From positions 1-42,169 of the IMG/VR virus record IMGVR_UViG_2541047917_000006: a stretch of 42,169 bases of DNA; one strand, written 5' to 3'. Under the pieces are notes generated by a model, which saw only the letters and a program-made list of their open reading frames with translations, searched no databases and was not told where the DNA came from. The DNA is from a virus. Its lineage: Duplodnaviria; Heunggongvirae; Uroviricota; Caudoviricetes. Position 1 is the stretch's first letter. The number at the start of each line of letters is the position of its first letter. The position numbers were made by a program, and so were the translations under genes. Below, one piece after another: positions 4,710-37,320 of the stretch.

Positions 4710-5251
4710 TGGCTGCCTCCTTTGCGAATCTGTTCCGCCCATTCTTCAAGGGATTTCTCCGCATATTCACCAGACAGGCCATCAATCGGATGCGCTTCAT
4801 TAACCAACTCTTCTTTCGCTGACAAAATCATGAGTGTAACGTCGAAAACTTCACGCAAAGGCTTATTGATAAATCCGTGATTGAACGCAGCAGCAAGACG
4901 GCTTGCGGTGTAGTTAATCCCCTCGTTGCGTGCCTCCGCACGTATTTCAGCCAGGAAAGCGTCGGTGGCTGGCATATTTCCTGTTGCCTTCATTGCCTCC
5001 AAAATAACCAGAACGCCATCTCGCCCAACTACCTCAGCGATAACCTCGGTGTTGTCGCCAACAACATCGCAGAATGCCTGAACTGCCTTACGAGCCAGCG
5101 CACTCTCCGCCGCCAGCGCCGCGCACTTGGCCTCCGCTTCAGCAAATTTACGCACCAGATATTCAGCGTTTGTTTCGTTAACCTTTAAATCTCGGGGGAT
5201 GCATTTCCCTTTCAGAAATCCATCCATCTCAATTAGTGACATTTGTTTCAT
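4706..5251 (-). CDS. Hypothetical protein, 181 aa (possibly Ea22-like)
   Basis: Start reassigned to [15 protein letters not shown]-overlapped with the upstream stop; the Ea22-like label is from memory only. Confidence 0.55.
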
Positions 5252-5445
5252 TTCTTCCCACTCCGCCACATCGCATTCAGATATTTGTTTTGATTCACTG
5301 ATGGAAAAGAATTTCTCTTAAGTAATTCCTCTCTCGATGGCATTGGCTTTACGCGTTGGCGAATAATCATTTCTGCCGGAAGAATGCCGGGATTGTATGC
5401 AAGTCCTCTCATGGTAAATTCCTCAGTCATTACTGGTAGCGCCAT
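5248..5445 (-). CDS. Hypothetical small protein (start uncertain, 54-65 aa)
   Basis: ORF bridging two coupled genes; possible internal start MRGLAYNPG after GAGGAA. Confidence 0.35.
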
Positions 5446-5719
5446 AGCGTGAGCGGTAATTACGCAGGCGCGGGTCGATATATTCAGGGAGTTTGTCTAT
5501 TGTCGCTTTTCGCAACGGTCTCATTGCTGTTTCGTTTGTTCGGTCCTTCTCCTGTTTTAGCGCGAGTTGTATATCGCGTCGGTACATCCGTTCTGCTTTT
5601 GTTTCTGGTGTCAGAGCAAGAAACGCGTCGAAATTGTTTTTGATATTCTCCAGCACCTCCGCCTTGGAGCTACCGGAGCAGTTGCGCGGGTCATCCGCAC
5701 CATACAGAGGCGCTGGCAT
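5423..5719 (-). CDS. Hypothetical protein, 98 aa
   Basis: ORF immediately downstream of the ssb-like gene; no family recognised. Confidence 0.5.
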
Positions 5720-5742
5720 AATTAAATCCTTATTTTTCTAAA

Positions 5743-6126
5743 TCAGAATGGGATGGAATCGTCGTATTCAGGATTATTTTGATGATTGCTACTTTGCTGC
5801 TGTTGGCTGTTTCCTGAAGTTGCAAATCCAATCTTTGCATTCAGTAATTCAAGAGTGATTGATTGACCATTTTGCTCCTGATAAACATCAACCCTGATGT
5901 TTTCTCCGGTAATTTCCACAATGCAACCTTCAACAAGAACACTACGGTAGTAATCCACTTGCGCTCCCGGCTTGGCAAATACAACGGCGCTGTAGTTTGT
6001 CCATTCTTTCTTTTTTGTCTGGCGATCGTAATACTGAACGCCAGCACGGATGTTGAATCCGATATTTTCACCGGCCTGAAACTCTCTTGCAGGCTTGTTT
6101 AGTCTTACAGTAATCGAATGGGCCAT
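5743..6126 (-). CDS. SSB-like single-strand DNA-binding protein, 127 aa
   Basis: Start reassigned to MAHSITV (TAATG overlap with erf stop). C-terminal Gln/Asn-rich linker ending DDSIPF, the acidic SSB tip motif (E. coli SSB ends DDDIPF). Confidence 0.7.
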   Translation of the reverse strand: MAHSITVRLNKPAREFQAGENIGFNIRAGVQYYDRQTKKKEWTNYSAVVFAKPGAQVDYYRSVLVEGCIVEITGENIRVDVYQEQNGQSITLELLNAKIGFATSGNSQQQQSSNHQNNPEYDDSIPF

Positions 6127-6731
6127 TAAGCAGCCGCTCCTTCTAATTCGTCTCGTCTGATGTTGTAAACGTCCTGCGCTTTGTGCTGCTCCGGTGTGCC
6201 TTCGAGCATCTTCCACGCTTTGGCGAACGCCTGTTTAAGCTCTTCTACGGTGTTTTTCTGCATTGCTGCGTCAGTGAATGCTTTTAGAACCTGTTCAGGT
6301 GTAGGTGATGGTTTTGATTGCTTTACTGCTGCGTTCTGCTGATGTTTATGCTCGTCTGTATCTGCATCTTTCGCATCATCAATGCCGAACAAACCATTGA
6401 GGCAATACTTGCGTGCATAAGAGCTTGTAGCTCCCGTAACTTGTGCAGAATCCATTCCTTTCTTGCTTTCTTCCTCTCGTGCAAGAGCGGTTGCCGTATG
6501 ACTGTTTTCGCCATCGGTAATAGTTGCCGTGGCTTTCACGTAATACCGATCACCAATCAACACAACTTCATCGCTGATTGACAAAAACAGACCATTCAGT
6601 AACGGCTTAACGCCTTCAAGAATGTCTTCGCAGCTTCTGTATTTATATTTACCGAATGAGTTGTACTGATTCTTGGGCGCGTTCAGATTTTCCTGAATGG
6701 CTGCCAGTCTTGCATAAAATTCTTTGCTCAT
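6126..6731 (-). CDS. erf: Erf single-strand annealing recombinase
   Basis: Start reassigned to MSKEFYARLAAIQENLNAPKNQYNSFGKYKYRSCEDILEGVKPLL, which matches P22 Erf as I recall it. Confidence 0.9.
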   Translation of the reverse strand: MSKEFYARLAAIQENLNAPKNQYNSFGKYKYRSCEDILEGVKPLLNGLFLSISDEVVLIGDRYYVKATATITDGENSHTATALAREEESKKGMDSAQVTGATSSYARKYCLNGLFGIDDAKDADTDEHKHQQNAAVKQSKPSPTPEQVLKAFTDAAMQKNTVEELKQAFAKAWKMLEGTPEQHKAQDVYNIRRDELEGAAA

Positions 6732-17578: not shown

Positions 17579-17902
17579 ATGAAGATGCCAGAAAAAAATG
17601 ACCTGTTAGCCGCCATTCTCGCGGCAAAGGAACAAGGCATCGGGGCAATCCTTGCGTTTGCAATGGCGTACCTTCGCGGCAGATATAATGGCGGTGCGTT
17701 TACAAAAACAGTAATCGACGCAACGATGTGCGCCATTATCGCCTGGTTCATTCGTGACCTTCTCGACTTCGCCGGACTAAGTAGCAATCTCGCTTATATA
17801 ACGAGCGTGTTTATCGGCTACATCGGTACTGACTCGATTGGTTCGCTTATCAAACGCTTCGCTGCTAAAAAAGCCGGAGTAGAAGATGGTGGAAATCAAT
17901 AA
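17579..17902 (+). CDS. S: Holin, class I (lambda S type)
   Basis: 107-aa [53 protein letters not shown], matches lambda S from memory, including the MKM dual-start motif. Confidence 0.95.
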
Positions 17903-18362
17903 TCAACGTAAGGCGTTCCTCGATATGCTGGCGTGGTCAGAGGGAACTGATAACGGACGTCAGAAAACCAGAAATCATGGTTATGACGTCATTGTAGGCG
18001 GAGAGCTATTCACTGATTACTCCGATCACCCTCGCAAACTTGTCACGCTAAACCCCAAACTCAAATCAACAGCAGCCGGACGTTACCAGCTTCTTTCCCG
18101 TTGGTGGGATGCCTATCGTAAGCAGCTTGGCCTGAAAGACTTCTCTCCGAAAAGCCAGGACGCTGTGGCACTGCAACAGATTAAAGAGCGTGGCGCTTTA
18201 CCGATGATTGATCGCGGTGATATCCGTCAGGCAATCGACCGTTGCAGCAATATCTGGGCTTCACTGCCGGGCGCTGGTTATGGTCAGTTCGAGCATAAGG
18301 CTGACAACCTGATTGCAAAATTCAAAGAAGCTGGCGGAACGGTCAGAGAGATTGAGGTATGA
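17886..18362 (+). CDS. R: Endolysin (lambda R-type lytic transglycosylase)
   Basis: 158-aa [45 protein letters not shown], matches lambda R from memory. Confidence 0.95.
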
Positions 18363-18796
18363 GCAGAGTAACCGCGATTATCTCCGCTCTGGTTATCTGC
18401 ATCATCGTCTGCCTGTCATGGGCGGTCAATCATTACCGTGATAACGCCATCGCCTATAAAGAACAGCGCGATAAAGCCACGTACATCATCGCTGATATGC
18501 AGAAGCGTCAACGTGATGTAGCAGAACTCGACGCCAGATACACAAAGGAGCTTGCTGATGCTAACGCGACTATCGAAAGTCTCCGTGCTGATGTTTCTGC
18601 TGGGCGTAAGCGCCTGCAAGTCGCCGCCACCTGTGCAAAGTCAACGACCGGAGCCAGCAGCATGGGCGATGGAGAAAGCCCAAGACTTACAGCAGATGCT
18701 GAACTCAATTATTACCGTCTCCGAAGTGGAATCGACAAGATAACCGCGCAGGTTAACTACCTGCAGGAATACATCAGGACGCAATGCCTGAAATAA
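18359..18796 (+). CDS. Rz: Inner-membrane spanin Rz
   Basis: 145-aa [34 protein letters not shown], lambda Rz-like N-terminal TMD and coiled coil. Confidence 0.9.
18555..18743 (+). CDS. Rz1: Outer-membrane lipoprotein spanin Rz1 (embedded in Rz, +1 frame)
   Basis: Embedded ORF with lipobox LLGVSAC and Pro-rich mature region; ATG after AAGGAG. Confidence 0.8.
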
Positions 18797-31110: not shown

Positions 31111-32454
31111 ATGGCTACGTGGCAACAGGGTATTAATTCTGGTGGGTTTCTTGCTGGCATCGGTGCGCAAAATGAGAATGCGCCAAAGGCAAGCGACATT
31201 AATGCAACGCTTGGTCTGATCCGCGAAAACAATGAACTGGCTCGCTCAGGTGCAAATAACGTTGGTCTGACCGCGTTACGTGGTCTGGCTGGAGTTGCTG
31301 ATATTTACAATCAGGAACAGCAACAGAAAGCGATTAGTGCGTTCAATAAGGTTCATGCTGATGCATGGGCTTCTGGTGATCCATCGGGACTATTTAAGTT
31401 TGCCAAGGAAAATCCAGCGTTTGTTGCGCAGGCACAACAGGCATTTTCCGGTCTTAATGAGCAGCAACGCAACGATATGGGCGATTTAGCCATGAGAGCT
31501 AACGTCGCTCTTTCTCAGGGACCGGAAGCCTACAGTAAATTCATTACTGACAACAAGGACAGGTTAAATCGCGTTGGTGCTAATGCTGACTGGATGATTC
31601 AGACAGGTATCCAGAATCCAGAGCAGCTATCACACATGCTGACTACTATGACGCTAGGGGCTGTTGGTCCGGATAAAATGCTGGATTATCAGGATAAGAT
31701 GGTTGGTCGCCAACTAGAGAAAGGGCGATTGGATGAAAGCATCCGTCAGGCTGATATGGAGAATGCGAGAGGATGGGCAAATATCCAGAACGCTCAACTA
31801 GACAGGGCTCAGCGGGCACAAATGCACTCAGATGAGATGGGATTGAAGCTAATGGAGCTGGGGCAAAAAGGTAAGCCGTCAGCAGACTTAATTAAGGGAT
31901 TAAATTCTGATATTACCAATTTTGGCAAAAATTATAACTCTGTCAGAGCGGCGGCAAACTCTCTGCAAGCCCTTAGCAAGGTAAATACTGGCGCTGCCCA
32001 ACTTGGGATTATCTTTAATTACATGAAGTCTCTCGACCCTCAGTCAGTTGTTCGCGAAGGTGAACAGGTTCAGGTCATGCGCTCTGATGGCATATGGGGG
32101 CAGATAAAAGGATATGTAGACCAGCTTAATGCAGGGAATGGCTTGTCACAGGAAGCGAGGGATAACATTGTTAACGCAGCCAAAATTAACGCCAACGCTA
32201 TGGGGCAGCAGTTTAACCAGCAGGTAGACGAATATCTGGATACGTATGGAGATACTATTCCTCAAGGGCTGAAAAAAAGCTTAGGGAGAAGGAAGGCCAA
32301 GCTATTTGACGATGTCCCAGCGCAGCCTACACCACAAGGTGGTAATGGGCAGACAAAAGCTGCGCCAAGTGGGATATCAGAAGGCGCGACGGCAACGAAC
32401 CCTAAAACTGGTCAGAAACTCATTTATAGGAACGGACAATGGCAACCGATGTAG
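31111..32454 (+). CDS. Ejection protein (P22 gp20-like), 447 aa
   Basis: Position and size. Confidence 0.75.
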
Positions 32455-34562
32455 GTTTACCCGAAGGATTTGTTCTCGATAATCAGCCTGATAACTCACA
32501 GCTTCCTGATGGTTTTGTGCTTGATTCCCAACCAGAGCAGCAGCAATCACCTTTGGTTTCACCAGAGGAAAACTCCAGACAGGAAAATGTTGTTAATAAT
32601 GCTAACGGCTTCGACCGTTTTATGTATGGCGTTCTCAGTGGATTGATGGATGTTGGTAAAGGTGTTGGTCTATTTCAGGATATGACACCAGAAGAGCAAG
32701 CCGCAATTCAGTCTCTACAGCAGAAGTTAGCGGCAAAACCATCAACCGCACAAGATGTTGGTGAGTTCGTTGGACAAGCAGCACCATTTGTTAGTGGTGG
32801 TGGGATTATTTCTCAGGTTCCGAAAGGGGCGGCAAGGCTGGCTGCCGCCGCAGGGCTTGGTGCTGGAGAAGGGGCTATTGTAGCCAATGGAACAAATAGC
32901 GATGTTGCTTCTGGAGCTGCTATTGGCGCTGTGGCTGGCCCTGTAGCAGAGATTGTTGGTCCAGCGCTTGGGAAGATTGCAGGAAAAATTAAAAATAGTG
33001 CCGGAGATATTTATCGCTCATCCGTAGGGATGGGTAGTAAATCATCTAAAGCAACGTTAAAGAAAGCTGCTGGCGCAATGGACAATAAATTTATCGGCGG
33101 GCAACGAGCTATTCAAGATTTCGCCGATGAAGTTAATCCTGATTTTAACGCGATAAATGCTATTCGTGAGCTAGAACTGGAAAATTATGCCACTCCAGGC
33201 ATGATCTCTAATAATCCTGCTGTCAGGGCTCTTGATAATGCAGTGGCAAGTCTCCCTGGAACAGAGATTAGTGAGGCGCATAAGCGTTTTATTACTGAAT
33301 TAGGAAGAAAAGCTGATGAAATGATAACTTCATTTGGGGGAAGCCTTGATAAGCAACTGGTTTCTGACAGGCTTGCAGATAATTTTGATAAAACCATTTC
33401 ATCATTACAAAATCAGTCAGATAACATCTACAACAAAATTGCCGAAAAGGTTCCTGTAAGAGACCGGATTGAGGCAACTAATACATTGAATTTTTTAGAG
33501 GATTTTGCTGATGATATAGGTGGAATTGATGAATTATCTCCAATAATGAAGCGGACATTGAACCGACTTGATCCAAACACCTTGCCAACGTATGGGCGTT
33601 TAGATCTCGCTAGAAAGCAGGTTGGACAAGCTATTGGCAAAGGCTCTGGTCCATTCAAGGATGAAGAAACAGGTGTTCTTAAAAAGTTATATGCAGCCAT
33701 AACAGATGACCAACAGGCTGTCGCAGAAAAATATGGCGCAGGGGAATTATGGACGCTTGGTAAGGAGTTGGTAAAAAAACGAAAATCCATTGAAGATGAT
33801 GCTGTAACCGTCTTGGGTAGAAAACTTCAGCAATCAGCAATTCCAAAAGTTGAAAGTGCTGTTGTTAATATGGCAAAAGGAAACGGTGGCGACTTTAGGC
33901 AATTAATGAAGTCGATTCCAAAGGATATGCGGCAGGAAGTTGCGCTCACCTCAATGAATAAAGCATTTACCAGCTATGCCAAATCACCTGGTCAGCAATT
34001 AGGAGTTGATGGATTTGTAAAATGGTATAACGGAATGTCACGCAATGGGGCCAATATGAAGGCTCTCCGTGATGCTATTGGCACAGATGCATCAAAGCGC
34101 CTTGATACGATTTATCAAGCAGCTAAGGCTATGAATAGACTCAATACTGGTAAGCAGTATGCTAGTAGTCTTGTGGATCAGCAAGTTAATAACTTTCTGA
34201 AAGAAAAGGGTAGTCTCGCAAAAATTTATGGAATAGCCTCAAAAGCTGCTGCGGCGGAAGGTATTACAAGCTTATCTGGTCTTCCTGGTGTAGGTGCAAC
34301 AGGGGTGATAACGTCAGCATTGATGTCAGGGAAAACAAGCAGGATAAAGGCTGCTGATGCTCTACTGTCTTCTCCTGAGTTTAAATCAATGCTATTTCGC
34401 CTGCAAAACGCACCAGTAGACAGAGCAGAAGTGAGACGCGTAATAGAAAGGAAACTGATGCAATCTGGGGCATTTAAGAGATGGGAGAAAACCTTATCAA
34501 CAGATGAAGCAAAAACCATTGCCCGCACGGGGATTATTACATGGCTCGCTAGTGACAGTTAG
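32439..34562 (+). CDS. Ejection protein (P22 gp16-like), 707 aa
   Basis: Position and size; last gene of the ejection-protein block. Confidence 0.75.
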
Positions 34563-34786
34563 TCAACTTTGGTTATTTTGCCTTCTTTTTCTTGATGAAC
34601 TTTGCATCCATCGTCTTTTGATAGCCAAACTAAAAACTTTAAAACCTTAAACACAAGTACGGCTACTGCAATGAAAGCACCAATTGCAATTATTGCAAGC
34701 GAAATTATTTGCATTGGTGCTTTTAATGCAGGGAAAATAGTGTAAATGATCGCGAAAACAGTAATTATGAGGAACCATCGCTTCAC
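34559..34786 (-). CDS. Small two-helix membrane protein, 75 aa, low-GC moron
   Basis: GTG start five nt after AAGGAGG; strongly hydrophobic with AT-rich codons; convergent with and overlapping the gp16 stop. Confidence 0.6.
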   Translation of the reverse strand: MKRWFLIITVFAIIYTIFPALKAPMQIISLAIIAIGAFIAVAVLVFKVLKFLVWLSKDDGCKVHQEKEGKITKVD

Positions 34787-35160
34787 ACCAACCTCCTTAG
34801 TTTTGAGCAGGATACCAGATGATACTGTATTGGTGGAGTGGTGTGTGAAAACGTGTCAACGACAAACCATCCACAACTTGGACGAATGATTTAGCAAAAA
34901 GTGCTATTTTTGGTGTTTAGTGTCATAGAAAAGTGAATAGCTCACTTTTCAACATTGCATGAAACTTGCAGGAAATGTGACATTACCTTATAGGTAACTT
35001 CGGCGAAAATGCAGTAAATGTGAAACGTAATGGTTTAAACATGTCGCTAAAGTGGTTGTAAGTTAGCCTCCGAAGGATTGCTGATAGCTTTGTTATAGTA
35101 TTAAATGACATTTGACATAGTTGGATACTTAGCTGTGGCTATCAAGATGGAGGTGTGTTC

Positions 35161-35604
35161 ATGCTTACTTGTTTTGATGTCGCCGACTACTTCCTGTCGC
35201 GGTGTGACGAGGATAGCGGTGACACAATCTCTAATTTAAAATTACAAAAGCTTGTTTACTATGCTCAGGGTTTTTCATTGGCGTTGCTTGGCGAGCCTCT
35301 TTTTCAGAATAAGATGGAAGCTTGGATGCATGGCCCTGTTGTCCCTGAGCTTTATCGCCGTTATAAACAATATGGTAATGGCGCTATCCCTTCTCCAGAG
35401 TCTTTTGATGCTGAAAAATTCAGCGAAGAACAGTTAGAGCTATTAGAAGAAGTCTGGGATGTTTTTGGGCAATTTTCTGCCTGGAAACTGAGGAACATGA
35501 CACACGAAGAGTCACCATGGAGATCAAACTATATTGAGGGTGTTGGTGGTTCTGAAATTAGCTCTAAGGAGATGGCAGAGTACTTTGCAACTCGGATTAA
35601 CTAA
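35161..35604 (+). CDS. Panacea-domain (DUF4065) protein, PanA/SocA-like antitoxin candidate
   Basis: ATG after GGAGGTG; CFDVADYFL...ISNLKLQKLVYYAQGFSLALLGEPLF...EAWMHGPVVPELYRRYK fits the DUF4065 consensus as I recall it. Confidence 0.7.
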   Translation: MLTCFDVADYFLSRCDEDSGDTISNLKLQKLVYYAQGFSLALLGEPLFQNKMEAWMHGPVVPELYRRYKQYGNGAIPSPESFDAEKFSEEQLELLEEVWDVFGQFSAWKLRNMTHEESPWRSNYIEGVGGSEISSKEMAEYFATRIN

Positions 35605-35608
35605 CGAG

Positions 35609-36028
35609 ATGGCAAGAAAATCTAAAAGGATTATCCCCCCTGCTGAATCTACAGGTAAGTTAAAGTTAGGGCCGCAGTCAGGGGGGAATTCAGATCAAAA
35701 GAAACCGAAATTTTCATTCTGTTACATCCAAAGCTCTCACTGCATAACGAAATGCCAAAAAGATGAGAAAGCTGGCTTAGCTGATAAATTATACAGATTA
35801 AGTCAACTAACATGGGCAGAGATTAAGCAGCAAGGTAGGCATAAGCTTGGATTTGAGAAGATTGCAAGGGGTGCGATTAAAGCAGGTATCCCCAGTCATA
35901 TAACGGAAGACGTAGATCATTTCTTGGCTTTTAGATTTGATGATTTGAAAGCCATGGTTGGTTATCGTCTTGGATCGACATTTTTTGTTATATGGCTTGA
36001 TAGAGAGTTCAACCTATACAAGCACTAA
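35609..36028 (+). CDS. Unrecognised 139-aa partner of the Panacea-domain gene (toxin candidate)
   Basis: Start MARKSKR five nt after the upstream stop; Lys-rich N-terminus with C-x5-C-x3-C; beta-rich C-terminus ...GSTFFVIWLDREFNLYKH; followed by a strong terminator. Confidence 0.6.
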   Translation: MARKSKRIIPPAESTGKLKLGPQSGGNSDQKKPKFSFCYIQSSHCITKCQKDEKAGLADKLYRLSQLTWAEIKQQGRHKLGFEKIARGAIKAGIPSHITEDVDHFLAFRFDDLKAMVGYRLGSTFFVIWLDREFNLYKH

Positions 36029-36080: not shown

Positions 36081-36617
36081 TCAAACAACCCACCAGTTTG
36101 CCTGATTGGATGCCAGCCTTGCAGTTTTTATGGAATTAATTATGCCATGCTCAAGAGCCTTGTTAGCATCCAAAATGGTCGAGTCTGCTATCAGGGATGC
36201 CCACCTAATATGGGTTCCGATGTCGATATTGAACGTCTCAACGAAGCGATCAAGATCGTTATCGAGGCATTTCCCGTACTCTCTCAATCTGGCATGGTCG
36301 GCGGCTGGGGTGGCAAAGCCCCATAATAGAGGATGTAACAGGAATCTTGATAATGGGTTTGCGAAACGTTCTGAGCCAGCCAGGAAAACGATATTAGCTA
36401 TGGATTCAACATTGCTTATGTTGTGAGTTCTAACGGTAACAGGGAGTGACTTAAGAAAGTTATACGCAGTAAAGCCAGCGGCAGTTTCCCCTCCCTGACT
36501 TGATATATGGATATTTAATTCAGTTGCGCCCTGAGATAATGCGGTGAGACAGTGGTTCTGAAGTTGCCCAACAGTGGCAGTGTTAACGGGGCATAAGAAA
36601 TGAATTGTGTGCAGCAT
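36081..36617 (-). CDS. ClpP-fold serine protease-like protein, 178 aa
   Basis: ELNIHISSQGGETAAGFTAYNFLKSLPVTVRTHNISNVESIANIVFLAGSERFANPLSRFLLHPL aligns by eye with E. coli ClpP ([67 protein letters not shown]), including the Ser and His positions; start ATG overlaps the Mnt-like stop (TAATG). Confidence 0.65.
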   Translation of the reverse strand: MLHTIHFLCPVNTATVGQLQNHCLTALSQGATELNIHISSQGGETAAGFTAYNFLKSLPVTVRTHNISNVESIANIVFLAGSERFANPLSRFLLHPLLWGFATPAADHARLREYGKCLDNDLDRFVETFNIDIGTHIRWASLIADSTILDANKALEHGIINSIKTARLASNQANWWVV

Positions 36618-36865
36618 TATTTTTCATCCTTACCATACATGGTCTTTAGCGTCTCAAGCAGCGCCTCTTTGAATTTGTCAGCTTCTTGCTGAGCAAATGA
36701 CTCAACTGACTTTGGCGACCTATCTTCATCAATCGCGGCTTGCAAAATCATGACGATCTCGGAGTTAACAGAGCGACCATTTTTTGATGCTCTGACAGAA
36801 AGAGCCTCGCGTAAAGATTCAGGGATTCTTACCGTAGTTGGAGAAATTGACACACCCTTTGCCAT
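36617..36865 (-). CDS. mnt: Mnt-like ribbon-helix-helix repressor, 82 aa
   Basis: NGRSVNSEI motif and overall similarity to P22 Mnt (...ANGRSMNSEL...); same size as P22 Mnt; divergent from the arc-ant operon. Confidence 0.8.
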   Translation of the reverse strand: MAKGVSISPTTVRIPESLREALSVRASKNGRSVNSEIVMILQAAIDEDRSPKSVESFAQQEADKFKEALLETLKTMYGKDEK

Positions 36866-36979: not shown

Positions 36980-37132
36980 ATGGAGAAAGAAATAAGTAAG
37001 ATTTTGGTAAGGATGCCGCAGTCGTTAAAGGATGCTATCGGTAGCAGGGCAAAGGAAGAGTGCAGGTCGTTTAACTCAGAGGTTATCAAGCGCCTGATAG
37101 ACAGCCTGAAGAGAGAGGGGGTAGTGGTATGA
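36980..37132 (+). CDS. arc: Arc-like ribbon-helix-helix repressor, 50 aa
   Basis: Start reassigned to MEKEISKILVRMPQSLKDAIGSRAKEECRSFNSEV, parallels P22 Arc (FNLRWPREVLDLVRKVAEENGRSVNSEI). Confidence 0.75.
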   Translation: MEKEISKILVRMPQSLKDAIGSRAKEECRSFNSEVIKRLIDSLKREGVVV

Positions 37133-37320
37133 AAAACCGCAGATGTTGTTTTTGTGGGTGTAGTAAAGAAACGACTGGAAGGGGCTTTGTTGTGTCAAAA
37201 AATACCGAAGAAGCAATTTGTGACTCATGCGTTACAGATATTGTTATTTTCATGCATGGCGAGAAGGGGTTAGATGAAAAGCTAGAGAGTATTCCAGTTG
37301 AAGGCGCTGATAAAAGTTGA
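37129..37320 (+). CDS. Small Cys-rich protein with ClpX-zinc-finger-like motif, 63 aa
   Basis: ATG overlaps the arc stop (ATGA) after [17 protein letters not shown]...AICDSCV resembles the ClpX zinc-binding domain C-x2-C...C-x2-C pattern. Confidence 0.6.

What the first reader, a model, noticed from the sequence alone, without database searches (positions are those of the whole stretch)
34559..34786. Low-GC two-helix membrane mini-protein convergent with the ejection-protein operon
A 75-aa strongly hydrophobic ORF with a GTG start behind a perfect AAGGAGG site lies on the opposite strand at the end of the gp16-like gene, with its stop overlapping the gp16 stop. Position and membrane character resemble superinfection-exclusion or injection-blocking proteins such as SieA, but the protein is much smaller.
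Basis: inference. Interest (0 to 1): 0.45.

Follow-up and report, generated by a model that had tools for sequence, protein, structure and literature searches.

The report
Small membrane protein in sieA slot
A real, conserved 75-residue inner-membrane hairpin protein of unknown function sits exactly where phage P22 keeps its injection-blocking gene sieA, using the same leader sequence, so it is a plausible but untested new type of superinfection-exclusion protein.

Summary
ORF 34559-34786(-) is 75 aa with a GTG start 5 nt after AAGGAGG. It has 35% GC against 46% for the window, two hydrophobic helices and a charged tail, and its stop overlaps the stop of the 707-aa gp16-like gene.

It is a real gene. 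A 57%-identical homolog in a diverged P22-like contig keeps the length, start and overlap, with dN/dS 0.28 overall and 0.07 in the tail.

It is not a SieA homolog: BLASTP and hhalign find nothing and the SieA motif is absent. It does occupy the sieA slot. The 30 nt before its start codon match the P22 sieA leader, which lies just downstream of the annotated PsieA promoter.

In IMG/VR this leader precedes 12 unrelated ORF families, SieA among them. Eleven have a hydrophobic N-terminus or TM segments.

Slot alleles are tightly linked to the gp16 C-terminal type but recombine freely with upstream DNA. ORF75 always accompanies the 707-type gp16. In nine E. coli genomes a variant closes an Arc/Mnt-led operon.

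Best reading, at about 0.4: a prophage-expressed inner-membrane blocker of DNA delivery by P22-like phages. Function is untested. The family is narrow: E. coli and Salmonella prophages, phrog_7294, no literature.

The parts
34559..34786 (-). ORF75: a 75-aa protein. Predicted layout: N-in/C-in two-helix inner-membrane hairpin (TM1 about residues 4-21, turn K22-Q26, TM2 about residues 26-46), an amphipathic juxtamembrane stretch K47-S56, and a conserved charged cytoplasmic tail at residues 57-75 with an invariant Cys61.
   Evidence: sequence and hydropathy; phrog_7294, full length; homologs; dN/dS 0.28 overall, 0.07 in the tail. Topology follows from the positive-inside rule and is an inference.
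34784..34816 (-). Conserved 33-bp 'sieA leader' plus start codon: GGTATCCTGCTCAAAACTAAGGAGGTTGGT-GTG. The Shine-Dalgarno AAGGAGG lies at 34792-34798. It acts as the upstream junction of the exchangeable slot cassette.
   Evidence: about 97% identical to P22 L008 2829-2862, directly downstream of the annotated PsieA promoter; at least 119 IMG/VR contigs, 12 ORF families behind it; no RNA structure, z = 0.39.
34824..34851 (-). Weak candidate sigma-70 promoter for ORF75: TTTTCA (34846-34851), 16-nt spacer, TACAGT (34824-34829). The -10 hexamer ends 7 nt upstream of the leader.
   Evidence: Read by eye. It matches 8 of 12 positions, so the tool scan, which needs 9, did not list it. Inference only. 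In other prophages the leader is preceded by the P22 PsieA sequence or by other sequences.
32439..34562 (+). 707-aa gp16-type ejection (DNA transfer) protein. It is convergent with ORF75 and its stop overlaps ORF75's stop. Its C-terminal type (ending ...[13 protein letters not shown]) is the only one found next to ORF75.
   Evidence: phrog_6704 and phrog_770 DNA transfer protein; always adjacent; linkage; only about 23% identical to P22 gp16; closest cultured relative is Kapi1, 52%.
34817..35154 (.). Variable intergenic region between ORF75's leader and the divergent Panacea/SocA gene. It is shared with phage Emek, where the same region drives a different slot ORF.

Best explanation
ORF75 is a genuine moron gene of a P22-like (Lederbergvirus) temperate phage. 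It occupies the sieA slot between gene 16 and the immI (mnt/arc/ant) region.

How it is expressed. It is transcribed leftward, against the late operon. Transcription starts either from a weak promoter just upstream of the conserved sieA leader or, in variant B, from an Arc/Mnt-led operon. It should therefore be made in the lysogen.

What the product looks like. It inserts into the inner membrane as a tight helical hairpin with both ends in the cytoplasm and at most about 6 residues exposed to the periplasm. It displays a strongly conserved charged tail (LKFLxxLSKxDxCKVxQExxGKITKVD).

Proposed action. Like SieA, it blocks the last, inner-membrane step of DNA delivery by superinfecting P22-like phages. 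It would do so by interfering within the membrane, or at its cytoplasmic face, with insertion or opening of the gp16 part of the ejection conduit. Alternatively it could act on a host inner-membrane factor that the conduit needs. Phages carrying the 707-type gp16 are the most likely targets.

Shown: the gene is real, its hydropathy profile and charge distribution are those of a two-helix membrane hairpin (membrane insertion itself is predicted, not demonstrated), it sits in the sieA slot with the sieA leader, and it is linked to the gp16 type.

Inferred: expression in lysogens, topology, and the exclusion function with its target.
For: 1. Real coding gene. Against the diverged L018 copy, dN/dS is 0.28 overall and 0.07 for the tail. 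Length, start and stop overlap are all conserved. The annotated frame is the only one free of internal stops in both copies. No disrupted copy was seen among the 10 fetched loci that carry ORF75 (L001, L002, L004-L007, L009-L012).

2. Exact sieA position, orientation and leader. No sieA is present elsewhere in the window.

3. What P22 SieA does. It is an inner-membrane protein, sufficient when expressed from 85 bp of upstream DNA, that blocks injection. Escape mutations map to the C-terminal regions of gp16 and gp20 (PMC10883804).

4. The leader precedes 12 unrelated ORF families in at least 119 viral contigs. Eleven of the 12 have an N-terminal hydrophobic segment, a signal peptide or TM segments, so the slot specialises in envelope proteins.

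5. Linkage. Slot alleles predict the gp16 C-terminal type (residual entropy 0.22 of 2.13 bits) but not the upstream sequence (1.82 of 2.77 bits). ORF75 is found with the 707-type in 9 of 9 IMG/VR contigs that carry it and in all 10 fetched loci that carry it (8 E. coli chromosomes, phages EC.P3 and E212).

6. In 9 E. coli genomes variant B is the last gene of an operon headed by an Arc/Mnt-family repressor. In L018 the ORF follows the ClpP-like gene on the same strand. By analogy with P22, where mnt is expressed from the prophage, this places ORF75 in a unit expressed from the prophage.

7. A canonical lysis cassette lies elsewhere in the window, at 17579-18796. A lysis role is therefore not needed.
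Against: - No sequence or profile similarity to SieA or to any other slot family.
- No hit in Pfam, which by my recollection includes a T4 Imm-type superinfection-immunity family and holin families, nor in NCBIfam. The only PADLOC match (a 4TM effector model) is not significant at E = 0.052.
- No experimental or expression data.
- The slot also holds a cytoplasmic 140-aa allele and secreted proteins, so occupying the slot does not imply exclusion.
- SieA types A and B were found to be broad rather than specific to a gp16 type. This weakens the reading of the allele-gp16 linkage as functional matching. Plain physical linkage explains it equally well.
- The hairpin exposes almost nothing to the periplasm, so it cannot contact the gp20 tube.
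- One E. coli genome (EC5931) has two places for ORF75 and for the 707-type gp16, and PSJ-36 has two places for gp16. This argues against absolute self-exclusion, although the second copies were not inspected.
- dN/dS among the close E. coli copies is noisy, from 0 to 1.3 on 1-12 substitutions.
- The AF2 model was uninformative.
Confidence: 0.4

Rival explanations
1. ORF75 is an envelope moron with a different job. It would be a prophage-expressed small inner-membrane protein that modulates a host membrane protein or acts as a membrane-disrupting effector or sensor of an abortive-infection type defence. In that case it would act on phages other than P22-like ones, or on host physiology, and not on the gp16 conduit.
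For: - The ant moron carries many unrelated accessory genes, including toxin-antitoxin and defence-like pairs. Examples are Panacea/SocA plus an NsnC-like ORF right next door, and YafO in L015.
- The slot holds 12 unrelated families, so its functions are probably heterogeneous.
- The most conserved part is the cytoplasmic tail, which fits a cytoplasmic partner rather than an incoming periplasmic conduit.
- There is a faint, non-significant PADLOC match to a 4TM effector model (E = 0.052).
Against: - No significant match to any defence or toxin family.
- ORF75 has no conserved partner gene on its upstream side; at least 6 different neighbours occur there. The only constant neighbour is gp16.
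- The one characterised occupant of the slot is an injection blocker.
Confidence: 0.33
2. ORF75 is a lytic-cycle accessory tied to the phage's own gp16. It would be a self-immunity or chaperone-like membrane protein that protects the producer cell's inner membrane from the newly made membrane-active gp16. Alternatively it would be a holin, antiholin or pinholin-like timing factor, which shares the two-TM, N-in/C-in, charged C-tail layout.
For: - Strict adjacency and an overlapping stop with one gp16 type, retained over deep divergence (gp16 78% aa identical, dS saturated).
- The size and predicted topology match class II holins. This is established knowledge about holins, not something tested here.
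- P22 sieA is reported to be up-regulated during induction.
Against: - ORF75 is antisense to the late operon, which reads through this region.
- The window has a complete holin, endolysin and Rz cassette elsewhere.
- 11 of 45 E. coli genomes with the same gp16 3' end lack ORF75 and carry other alleles, so gp16 does not need it.
- No holin family hit.
Confidence: 0.12
3. ORF75 is not a functional gene. It would be a chance open frame in AT-rich DNA at the end of gene 16, kept only by hitch-hiking.
For: - The ORF is short, low in GC, has no family annotation and has a narrow distribution.
- dN/dS among close E. coli copies is sometimes about 1, on very few substitutions.
Against: - dN/dS is 0.28 (tail 0.07) at 68% nucleotide identity. 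Substitutions by codon position are 22, 16 and 34.
- The length is identical at 75 codons. The start and Shine-Dalgarno are conserved in three contexts. All other frames contain internal stops in both copies (2-9 stops per frame).
- Substitutions in the TM segments are conservative hydrophobic swaps.
Confidence: 0.03

Closest known systems
P22 SieA (superinfection exclusion A; types A, B and C)
   Same: - Same locus, immediately downstream of and convergent with gene 16, inside the ant moron.
- Same orientation.
- Nearly identical 30-nt leader, Shine-Dalgarno and GTG start.
- Low GC (34-35%).
- Integral inner-membrane character.
- Mutually exclusive with sieA in the genomes seen.
   Different: - No detectable homology.
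- 75 aa with 2 TM segments, against 162-164 aa with 3 TM segments.
- Lacks the cytoplasmic FxRYPxEAxxFNK motif.
- Almost no extramembrane loop.
- Associated with a different gp16 type, about 23% identical to P22 gp16.
- Its function is untested.
T4 Imm (83-aa membrane protein that blocks T-even DNA injection)
   Same: A very small phage-encoded cytoplasmic-membrane protein with two predicted hydrophobic segments, thought to act at the DNA-entry site. It shows that about 80 residues can suffice for an injection block. The function is stated in PMC11436027; the size and topology are from my own knowledge of Lu and Henning 1989 and 1993.
   Different: - The Pfam scan returned no family for ORF75. 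By my recollection Pfam includes a T4 Imm-type superinfection-immunity family.
- T4 Imm is an early gene of a virulent phage, not a prophage moron.
- The target phages are different.
- No direct sequence comparison was made here.
Pore-forming colicin immunity genes (for example ColE1, ColIa, ColA imm)
   Same: An architectural analogy only, from my own knowledge of colicin biology. A small inner-membrane protein gene lies immediately downstream of, and convergent with, the 3' end of a gene whose C-terminal part acts in the inner membrane. It is expressed from its own weak promoter, and allele pairs are tightly linked. Here the slot allele predicts the gp16 C-terminal type.
   Different: - No homology.
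- gp16 pore formation and its specific neutralisation by ORF75 are hypothetical.
- SieA types tested so far are broad rather than pair-specific.
Other uncharacterised 'ant moron' slot alleles (109-aa, 129-aa Sf6 gp38-like / Emek orf129, 62-aa two-TM, 116-aa three-TM, YobH-like 68-aa and others)
   Same: They share the leader, position and orientation. They are mostly envelope-targeted, low in GC and of unknown function. The region is already described as hypervariable (PMC2629481).
   Different: They are unrelated in sequence. Each is linked to its own gp16 C-terminal type(s).

Membership tests
SieA (P22-type superinfection exclusion protein, types A-C) | Detectable sequence homology to SieA type A, B or C | tested here: not met
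   BLASTP against P22 SieA gives a best E of 3.5. hhalign of the ORF75 profile against a type A SieA alignment gives probability 0.2%. Types B and C were not compared directly.
SieA (P22-type superinfection exclusion protein, types A-C) | Conserved cytoplasmic motif FxRYPxEAxxFNK near the C-terminus (PMC10883804) | tested here: not met
   A regular-expression search finds it absent in ORF75, present in P22 SieA at residues 145-157, and absent from all six frames of the window.
SieA (P22-type superinfection exclusion protein, types A-C) | About 160-200 aa with three or four predicted TM segments | tested here: not met
   ORF75 has 75 aa and two hydrophobic segments. With the same method P22 SieA shows three.
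SieA (P22-type superinfection exclusion protein, types A-C) | Located between the gene 16 and gene 9 homologs of a P22-like prophage, transcribed against the late operon | tested here: met
   The leader is also shared with P22 sieA.
SieA (P22-type superinfection exclusion protein, types A-C) | Blocks DNA injection of P22-like phages when expressed alone; inner-membrane localisation shown biochemically | not testable with these tools
   Needs plating, K+ efflux, DNA-entry and fractionation experiments.
T4 Imm-type superinfection-immunity family in Pfam | Match to the Pfam family model | tested here: not met
   The Pfam-A scan at E <= 0.01 returned no family for ORF75. That Pfam contains such a family is my recollection, not checked here.
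Holins (class II / pinholin) | Match to a holin family model and location in a lysis cassette next to an endolysin | tested here: not met
   No Pfam, NCBIfam or PHROG holin hit. The lysis cassette is at 17579-18796, 16 kb away.
Known anti-phage defence proteins (PADLOC-DB) | Significant match to a PADLOC model | tested here: not met
   The only match is the 4TM effector model at E = 0.052, 10.9 bits.
phrog_7294 (uncharacterised phage protein family) | Full-length match to the family profile | tested here: met
   E = 3e-49, residues 1-75 on profile positions 1-75 of 75. The family is labelled 'unknown function'.

The most novel reading that the evidence does not exclude
The sieA slot of P22-like phages is a cassette-exchange hotspot. 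It is bounded upstream by a conserved 33-bp leader and downstream by the end of gene 16. It holds a dozen or more unrelated, mostly membrane or periplasmic 'immunity' proteins, each co-inherited with a particular C-terminal type of the membrane-acting ejection protein gp16. This would be an arms-race arrangement like pore-forming colicin and immunity pairs. ORF75 would be the minimal member: a 75-residue hairpin that neutralises the 707-type gp16 inside the inner membrane or through its conserved cytoplasmic tail.
Probability: 0.2. Interest if true: 0.7.

Novelty: new variant of a known kind. Interest (0 to 1): 0.42.

Why it matters
[quoted passage not shown] Its mechanism and its relation to the hypervariable ejection proteins are unresolved (PMC10883804).

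If ORF75 excludes phages, it would give a second, unrelated and much simpler inhibitor acting on the same step. It has two helices and a 19-residue tail, which makes it a tractable handle for mapping how gp16 crosses the inner membrane. It would also have practical relevance, because about 0.6% of complete E. coli genomes, and Salmonella isolates as well, carry it.

The shared leader and the allele-gp16 linkage turn 'the ant moron is variable' into a testable hypothesis. That hypothesis is that most P22-like prophages without sieA carry an alternative exclusion gene at the same site.

If ORF75 has no exclusion phenotype, the finding remains an ordinary uncharacterised moron.

Tried and rejected
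- AF2 with the shallow 22-sequence alignment gave one continuous helix (residues 2-71, pLDDT 76, pTM 0.37). It says nothing about the hairpin, so no fold search was run.
- The HMM scan of 1.84 billion representatives found only two true clusters. The two other hits are repetitive hydrophobic artefacts.
- The genome-contig scan (one genome per GTDB species) found no copy.
- The simple promoter scan found no minus-strand promoter at 9 of 12 or better upstream of the ORF. Only a weak 8 of 12 candidate was found by eye.
- The minus-strand terminator-like sites are weak and not obviously relevant.
- The leader RNA has no significant structure (z = 0.39). A riboswitch or attenuator reading was dropped.
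- Pairwise dN/dS among close E. coli copies was too noisy to use. The L018 comparison was used instead.
- I tried to locate the second ORF75 copy in E. coli EC5931, to judge double lysogeny. It was not within 25 kb either side of the first copy, and the search tool lists only one place per record.
- A literature search by protein accession and by topic found nothing on this protein.
- One bioRxiv preprint on the P22 channel was not held.
- I rejected a holin reading (separate lysis cassette), a SieA fragment or truncation (no similarity), and a spurious ORF.
Full report
**1. The observation**

- The minus-strand ORF 34559..34786 encodes 75 residues: [75 protein letters not shown], with GTG read as Met.
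- On the minus strand the upstream sequence is TAAGGAGGTTGGT-GTG. The AAGGAGG at 34792-34798 lies 5 nt before the start.
- Its TAA (34559-34561) overlaps the TAG (34560-34562) of the convergent 707-aa gene 32439..34562(+).
- That gene matches PHROG 'DNA transfer protein' profiles. It follows gp7-like and gp20-like genes in related prophages, so it is the gene 16 equivalent.
- GC is 35% against 46% for the window.
- Hydropathy shows two segments (about residues 4-21 and 26-46) joined by a 4-5 residue turn rich in Pro (FPALKAPMQ). An amphipathic stretch and a charged tail follow.
- Lys/Arg residues lie at the N-terminus (K2, R3) and after TM2 (K47, K50, K57), with only K22 in the turn. By the positive-inside rule this points to an N-in/C-in hairpin with almost no periplasmic exposure. 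This is an inference.

**2. It is a real gene**

The family is very narrow.
- The word-indexed search of 5.8 billion proteins found only copies 84-97% identical (21 clusters), named in E. coli and Salmonella enterica.
- A full HMMER scan of 1.84 billion representatives found only one further true cluster, P0022, which is 57% identical and also 75 aa.

P0022 lies on a 7.3-kb assembled contig (L018, 52% GC) with the same architecture: gp7, gp20, a 732-aa gp16 (78% identical), then the convergent 75-codon ORF. That ORF has a GTG start, a Shine-Dalgarno and overlapping stops.

Window against L018:

| Measure | Value |
|---|---|
| Nucleotide identity | 68% |
| Substitutions by codon position 1 / 2 / 3 | 22 / 16 / 34 |
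| dN/dS, whole ORF | 0.28 |
| dN/dS, TM part | 0.47 |
| dN/dS, residues 47-75 | 0.07 |

The annotated frame is the only one free of internal stops in both sequences. The conserved pattern is MKRW...IY.I.P.LKA...[20 protein letters not shown]. The cytoplasmic tail, with its single Cys, is therefore the most constrained part.

Comparisons among the close E. coli copies carry too few substitutions to be informative.

Pfam, NCBIfam and PADLOC give no significant hit. PHROGs gives a full-length match to phrog_7294, labelled unknown function.

**3. Where it sits: the sieA slot**

The window is a P22-like (Lederbergvirus-type) genome.
- Phages EC.P3 and E212 are 99.7% identical across this region.
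- To the right lie Arc/Mnt-like repressors and a P22-type antirepressor. This is the immI region, or 'ant moron'.
- In P22 itself the gene immediately downstream of and convergent with gene 16 is sieA. Its promoter is annotated 30 nt upstream of the start.

The 30 nt before the ORF75 start, together with the GTG (window 34784-34816, GGTATCCTGCTCAAAACTAAGGAGGTTGGTGTG), are about 97% identical to the P22 sieA leader (L008 2829-2862). No other part of the two genes is similar. In E. coli 55989 and another strain the whole P22 PsieA region precedes ORF75 (L006, L011).

The window has no sieA homolog and no SieA motif. ORF75 is therefore an alternative occupant of the sieA slot, not a relative of SieA. 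hhalign gives probability 0.2%.

**4. The slot is a cassette site**

Translating from the GTG gives 12 unrelated families:

| Family | Contigs |
|---|---|
| 109 aa, N-terminal anchor plus coiled coil | 29 |
| 129 aa, signal peptide (Emek orf129 / Sf6 gp38-like) | 24 |
| SieA | 12 |
| 62 aa, two TM | 10 |
| ORF75 | 9 |
| A second 109-aa family | 8 |
| 149 aa, one TM | 6 |
| 116 aa, three TM | 6 |
| 140 aa, cytoplasmic | 5 |
| 106 aa | 4 |
| 99 aa, signal peptide | 4 |
| 68 aa, YobH-like | 3 |

- Eleven of the twelve begin with a hydrophobic segment or contain TM segments.
- None except SieA has a known function.
- The leader RNA has no significant structure. It looks like a shared translation-initiation region that doubles as the upstream recombination junction.
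- In some alleles the junction extends into the first four codons (VKRW is shared by the 75-, 99- and 68-aa families).

**5. Linkage**

- Each slot family is found with 3-12 different upstream sequences, and the same upstream sequences recur with different families.
- In contrast, each family is almost confined to one gp16 C-terminal type.
- Given the slot allele, the residual entropy of the gp16 C-terminal type is 0.22 of 2.13 bits. For the upstream type it is 1.82 of 2.77 bits.
- ORF75 is found with the 707-type C-terminus in 9 of 9 IMG/VR contigs, always with the 4-nt stop overlap. The same holds in all 10 fetched loci that carry it: 8 E. coli chromosomes and phages EC.P3 and E212.
- 34 complete E. 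coli genomes carry the ORF, and 45 carry the same gp16 3' end. The other 11 carry different alleles: YobH-like 68 aa plus 122 aa, or the 140-aa ORF.
- gp16 therefore does not require ORF75.
- The samples are not phylogenetically independent, and plain physical linkage could produce the pattern.

**6. Expression context**

- In 25 of the 34 E. coli genomes, and in the window, ORF75 has the sieA leader, preceded by varied sequences.
- In the window a weak candidate promoter (TTTTCA-16-TACAGT, 34824-34851) can be read by eye. The scan tool did not call it.
- In 9 genomes a recombinant form occurs (variant B: ATG start, MKQWLIIIAVFLL..., different Shine-Dalgarno). It is the last gene of a leftward operon: Arc/Mnt-like repressor, a 92-aa ORF, a 186-aa tail-anchored protein, then ORF75.
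- In L018 the ORF follows the ClpP-like gene on the same strand.
- In P22 the leftward mnt and sieA units are the prophage-expressed ones, and late transcription reads through them in the antisense direction.
- No transcript or proteomic data for ORF75 were found.

**7. What it most likely does**

The published work on SieA shows the following:
- It is an inner-membrane protein, sufficient on its own.
- It blocks DNA entry of P22-like phages only.
- Only 22 of 66 sequenced P22-like phages have sieA.

ORF75 has the identical locus, leader and orientation, and a predicted two-helix membrane hairpin. The slot shows an envelope theme. ORF75 is also constantly associated with one gp16 type.

From this I consider a SieA-like role the single most likely function, at about 0.4. 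In that role a prophage-made inner-membrane hairpin interferes with the gp16 step of DNA delivery. Because the hairpin has no periplasmic domain, any contact must be within the membrane or through the conserved cytoplasmic tail.

Points against:
- There is no homology to any exclusion protein.
- The slot's contents are heterogeneous.
- The SieA types tested were broad in specificity, which weakens the 'matched pair' idea.
- Two genomes appear to hold two 707-type prophages.

Rivals:
- Another envelope, defence or host-modulating moron function (about 0.33).
- A lytic-cycle role tied to the phage's own gp16, or a holin-like role (about 0.12). Against this, the late operon runs antisense to ORF75, a complete lysis cassette lies at 17579-18796, and gp16 occurs without the ORF.
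- A non-functional ORF (about 0.03, contradicted).

**8. Comparison with what is known, and novelty**

- The hypervariability of the ant moron is published (PMC2629481), and so is SieA (PMC10883804).
- ORF75 itself is annotated only as a hypothetical protein and as phrog_7294.
- It fails the defining sequence features of SieA: homology, motif, size and TM count.
- The Pfam scan returned no family of any kind, so it matched neither a T4 Imm-type nor a holin family.
- It should therefore not be filed in any of these families. It may still work like SieA.
- If it does, it is a new, minimal variant of a known kind of system.
- I did not find the leader-as-junction observation or the allele-gp16 linkage described in the papers I read. 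They make the idea directly testable.

**9. Verdict**

- Interest is moderate at 0.42.

Noticed in passing
window 35155-36028 (+): A SocA/Panacea antitoxin-domain protein (149 aa, Pfam E = 1.9e-24) is followed by an overlapping ORF (phrog_8366; PADLOC NsnC-like, E = 9.5e-6). This is probably a PanA-type toxin-antitoxin or defence pair inserted in the ant moron. The same pair occurs in Salmonella phage Emek (orf149/orf161).
   Followed up: partly
window 36081-36865 (-) and 37129-37320 (+): A ClpP-fold serine protease gene (178 aa) is translationally coupled to an Arc/Mnt-like repressor (82 aa) in the immI region. In a relative (L010) the ORF after arc is annotated 'ClpX C4-type zinc finger'. 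The window's 63-aa ORF with CCFCGC...CDSC looks similar, but Pfam gave no hit. This may be a proteolytic layer on antirepressor control.
   Followed up: partly
window 34784-34816 (-); loci L021-L139: The 33-bp sieA leader plus GTG is conserved exactly in at least 119 IMG/VR contigs, while both flanks vary. Twelve unrelated ORF families lie downstream and about 11 upstream sequence types lie upstream. It behaves as a module junction for cassette exchange.
   Followed up: yes
L004, L005, L012 at 5001-6354 (E. coli prophages): Variant B of ORF75 (ATG start, a different Shine-Dalgarno, N-terminal 17 residues replaced by MKQWLIIIAVFLLIYTV/I) is a recombinant within TM1. It closes an Arc-led operon after a 92-aa ORF and a 186-aa coiled-coil protein with a C-terminal TM anchor, annotated 'CCDC90 family' in some genomes. 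This variant is the commonest in public assemblies (cluster P0006, 619 contigs).
   Followed up: partly
E. coli EC5931 (NZ_CP104592.1) and PSJ-36 (NZ_AP027648.1): EC5931 has two places matching ORF75 and two matching the 707-type gp16 3' end. PSJ-36 has two gp16 places but one ORF75. This suggests possible polylysogeny with the same ejection-protein type, which bears on self-exclusion. The second copies were not located.
   Followed up: partly
L014 3954-4160 (-), L013 about 5254-5463 (-), L140 2629-3171 (-): With the same or a related gp16 type, other prophages carry a YobH-family small secreted or anchored protein (68-69 aa, two Cys) or, in phage Kapi1, two signal-peptide proteins in the same slot. 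In these prophages the gp16 C-terminus is 11-16 residues longer.
   Followed up: partly
window 32439-34562 (+): The gp16-type ejection protein is a distinct 707-aa type. It is about 23% identical to P22 gp16 over a partial alignment. The closest cultured phage is Kapi1 at 52%. Weaker relatives (26-33%) occur in Kosakonia, Klebsiella, Pseudomonas, Ralstonia and Roseobacter podophages, where they are annotated 'transglycosylase'. Pfam gave no hit.
   Followed up: partly
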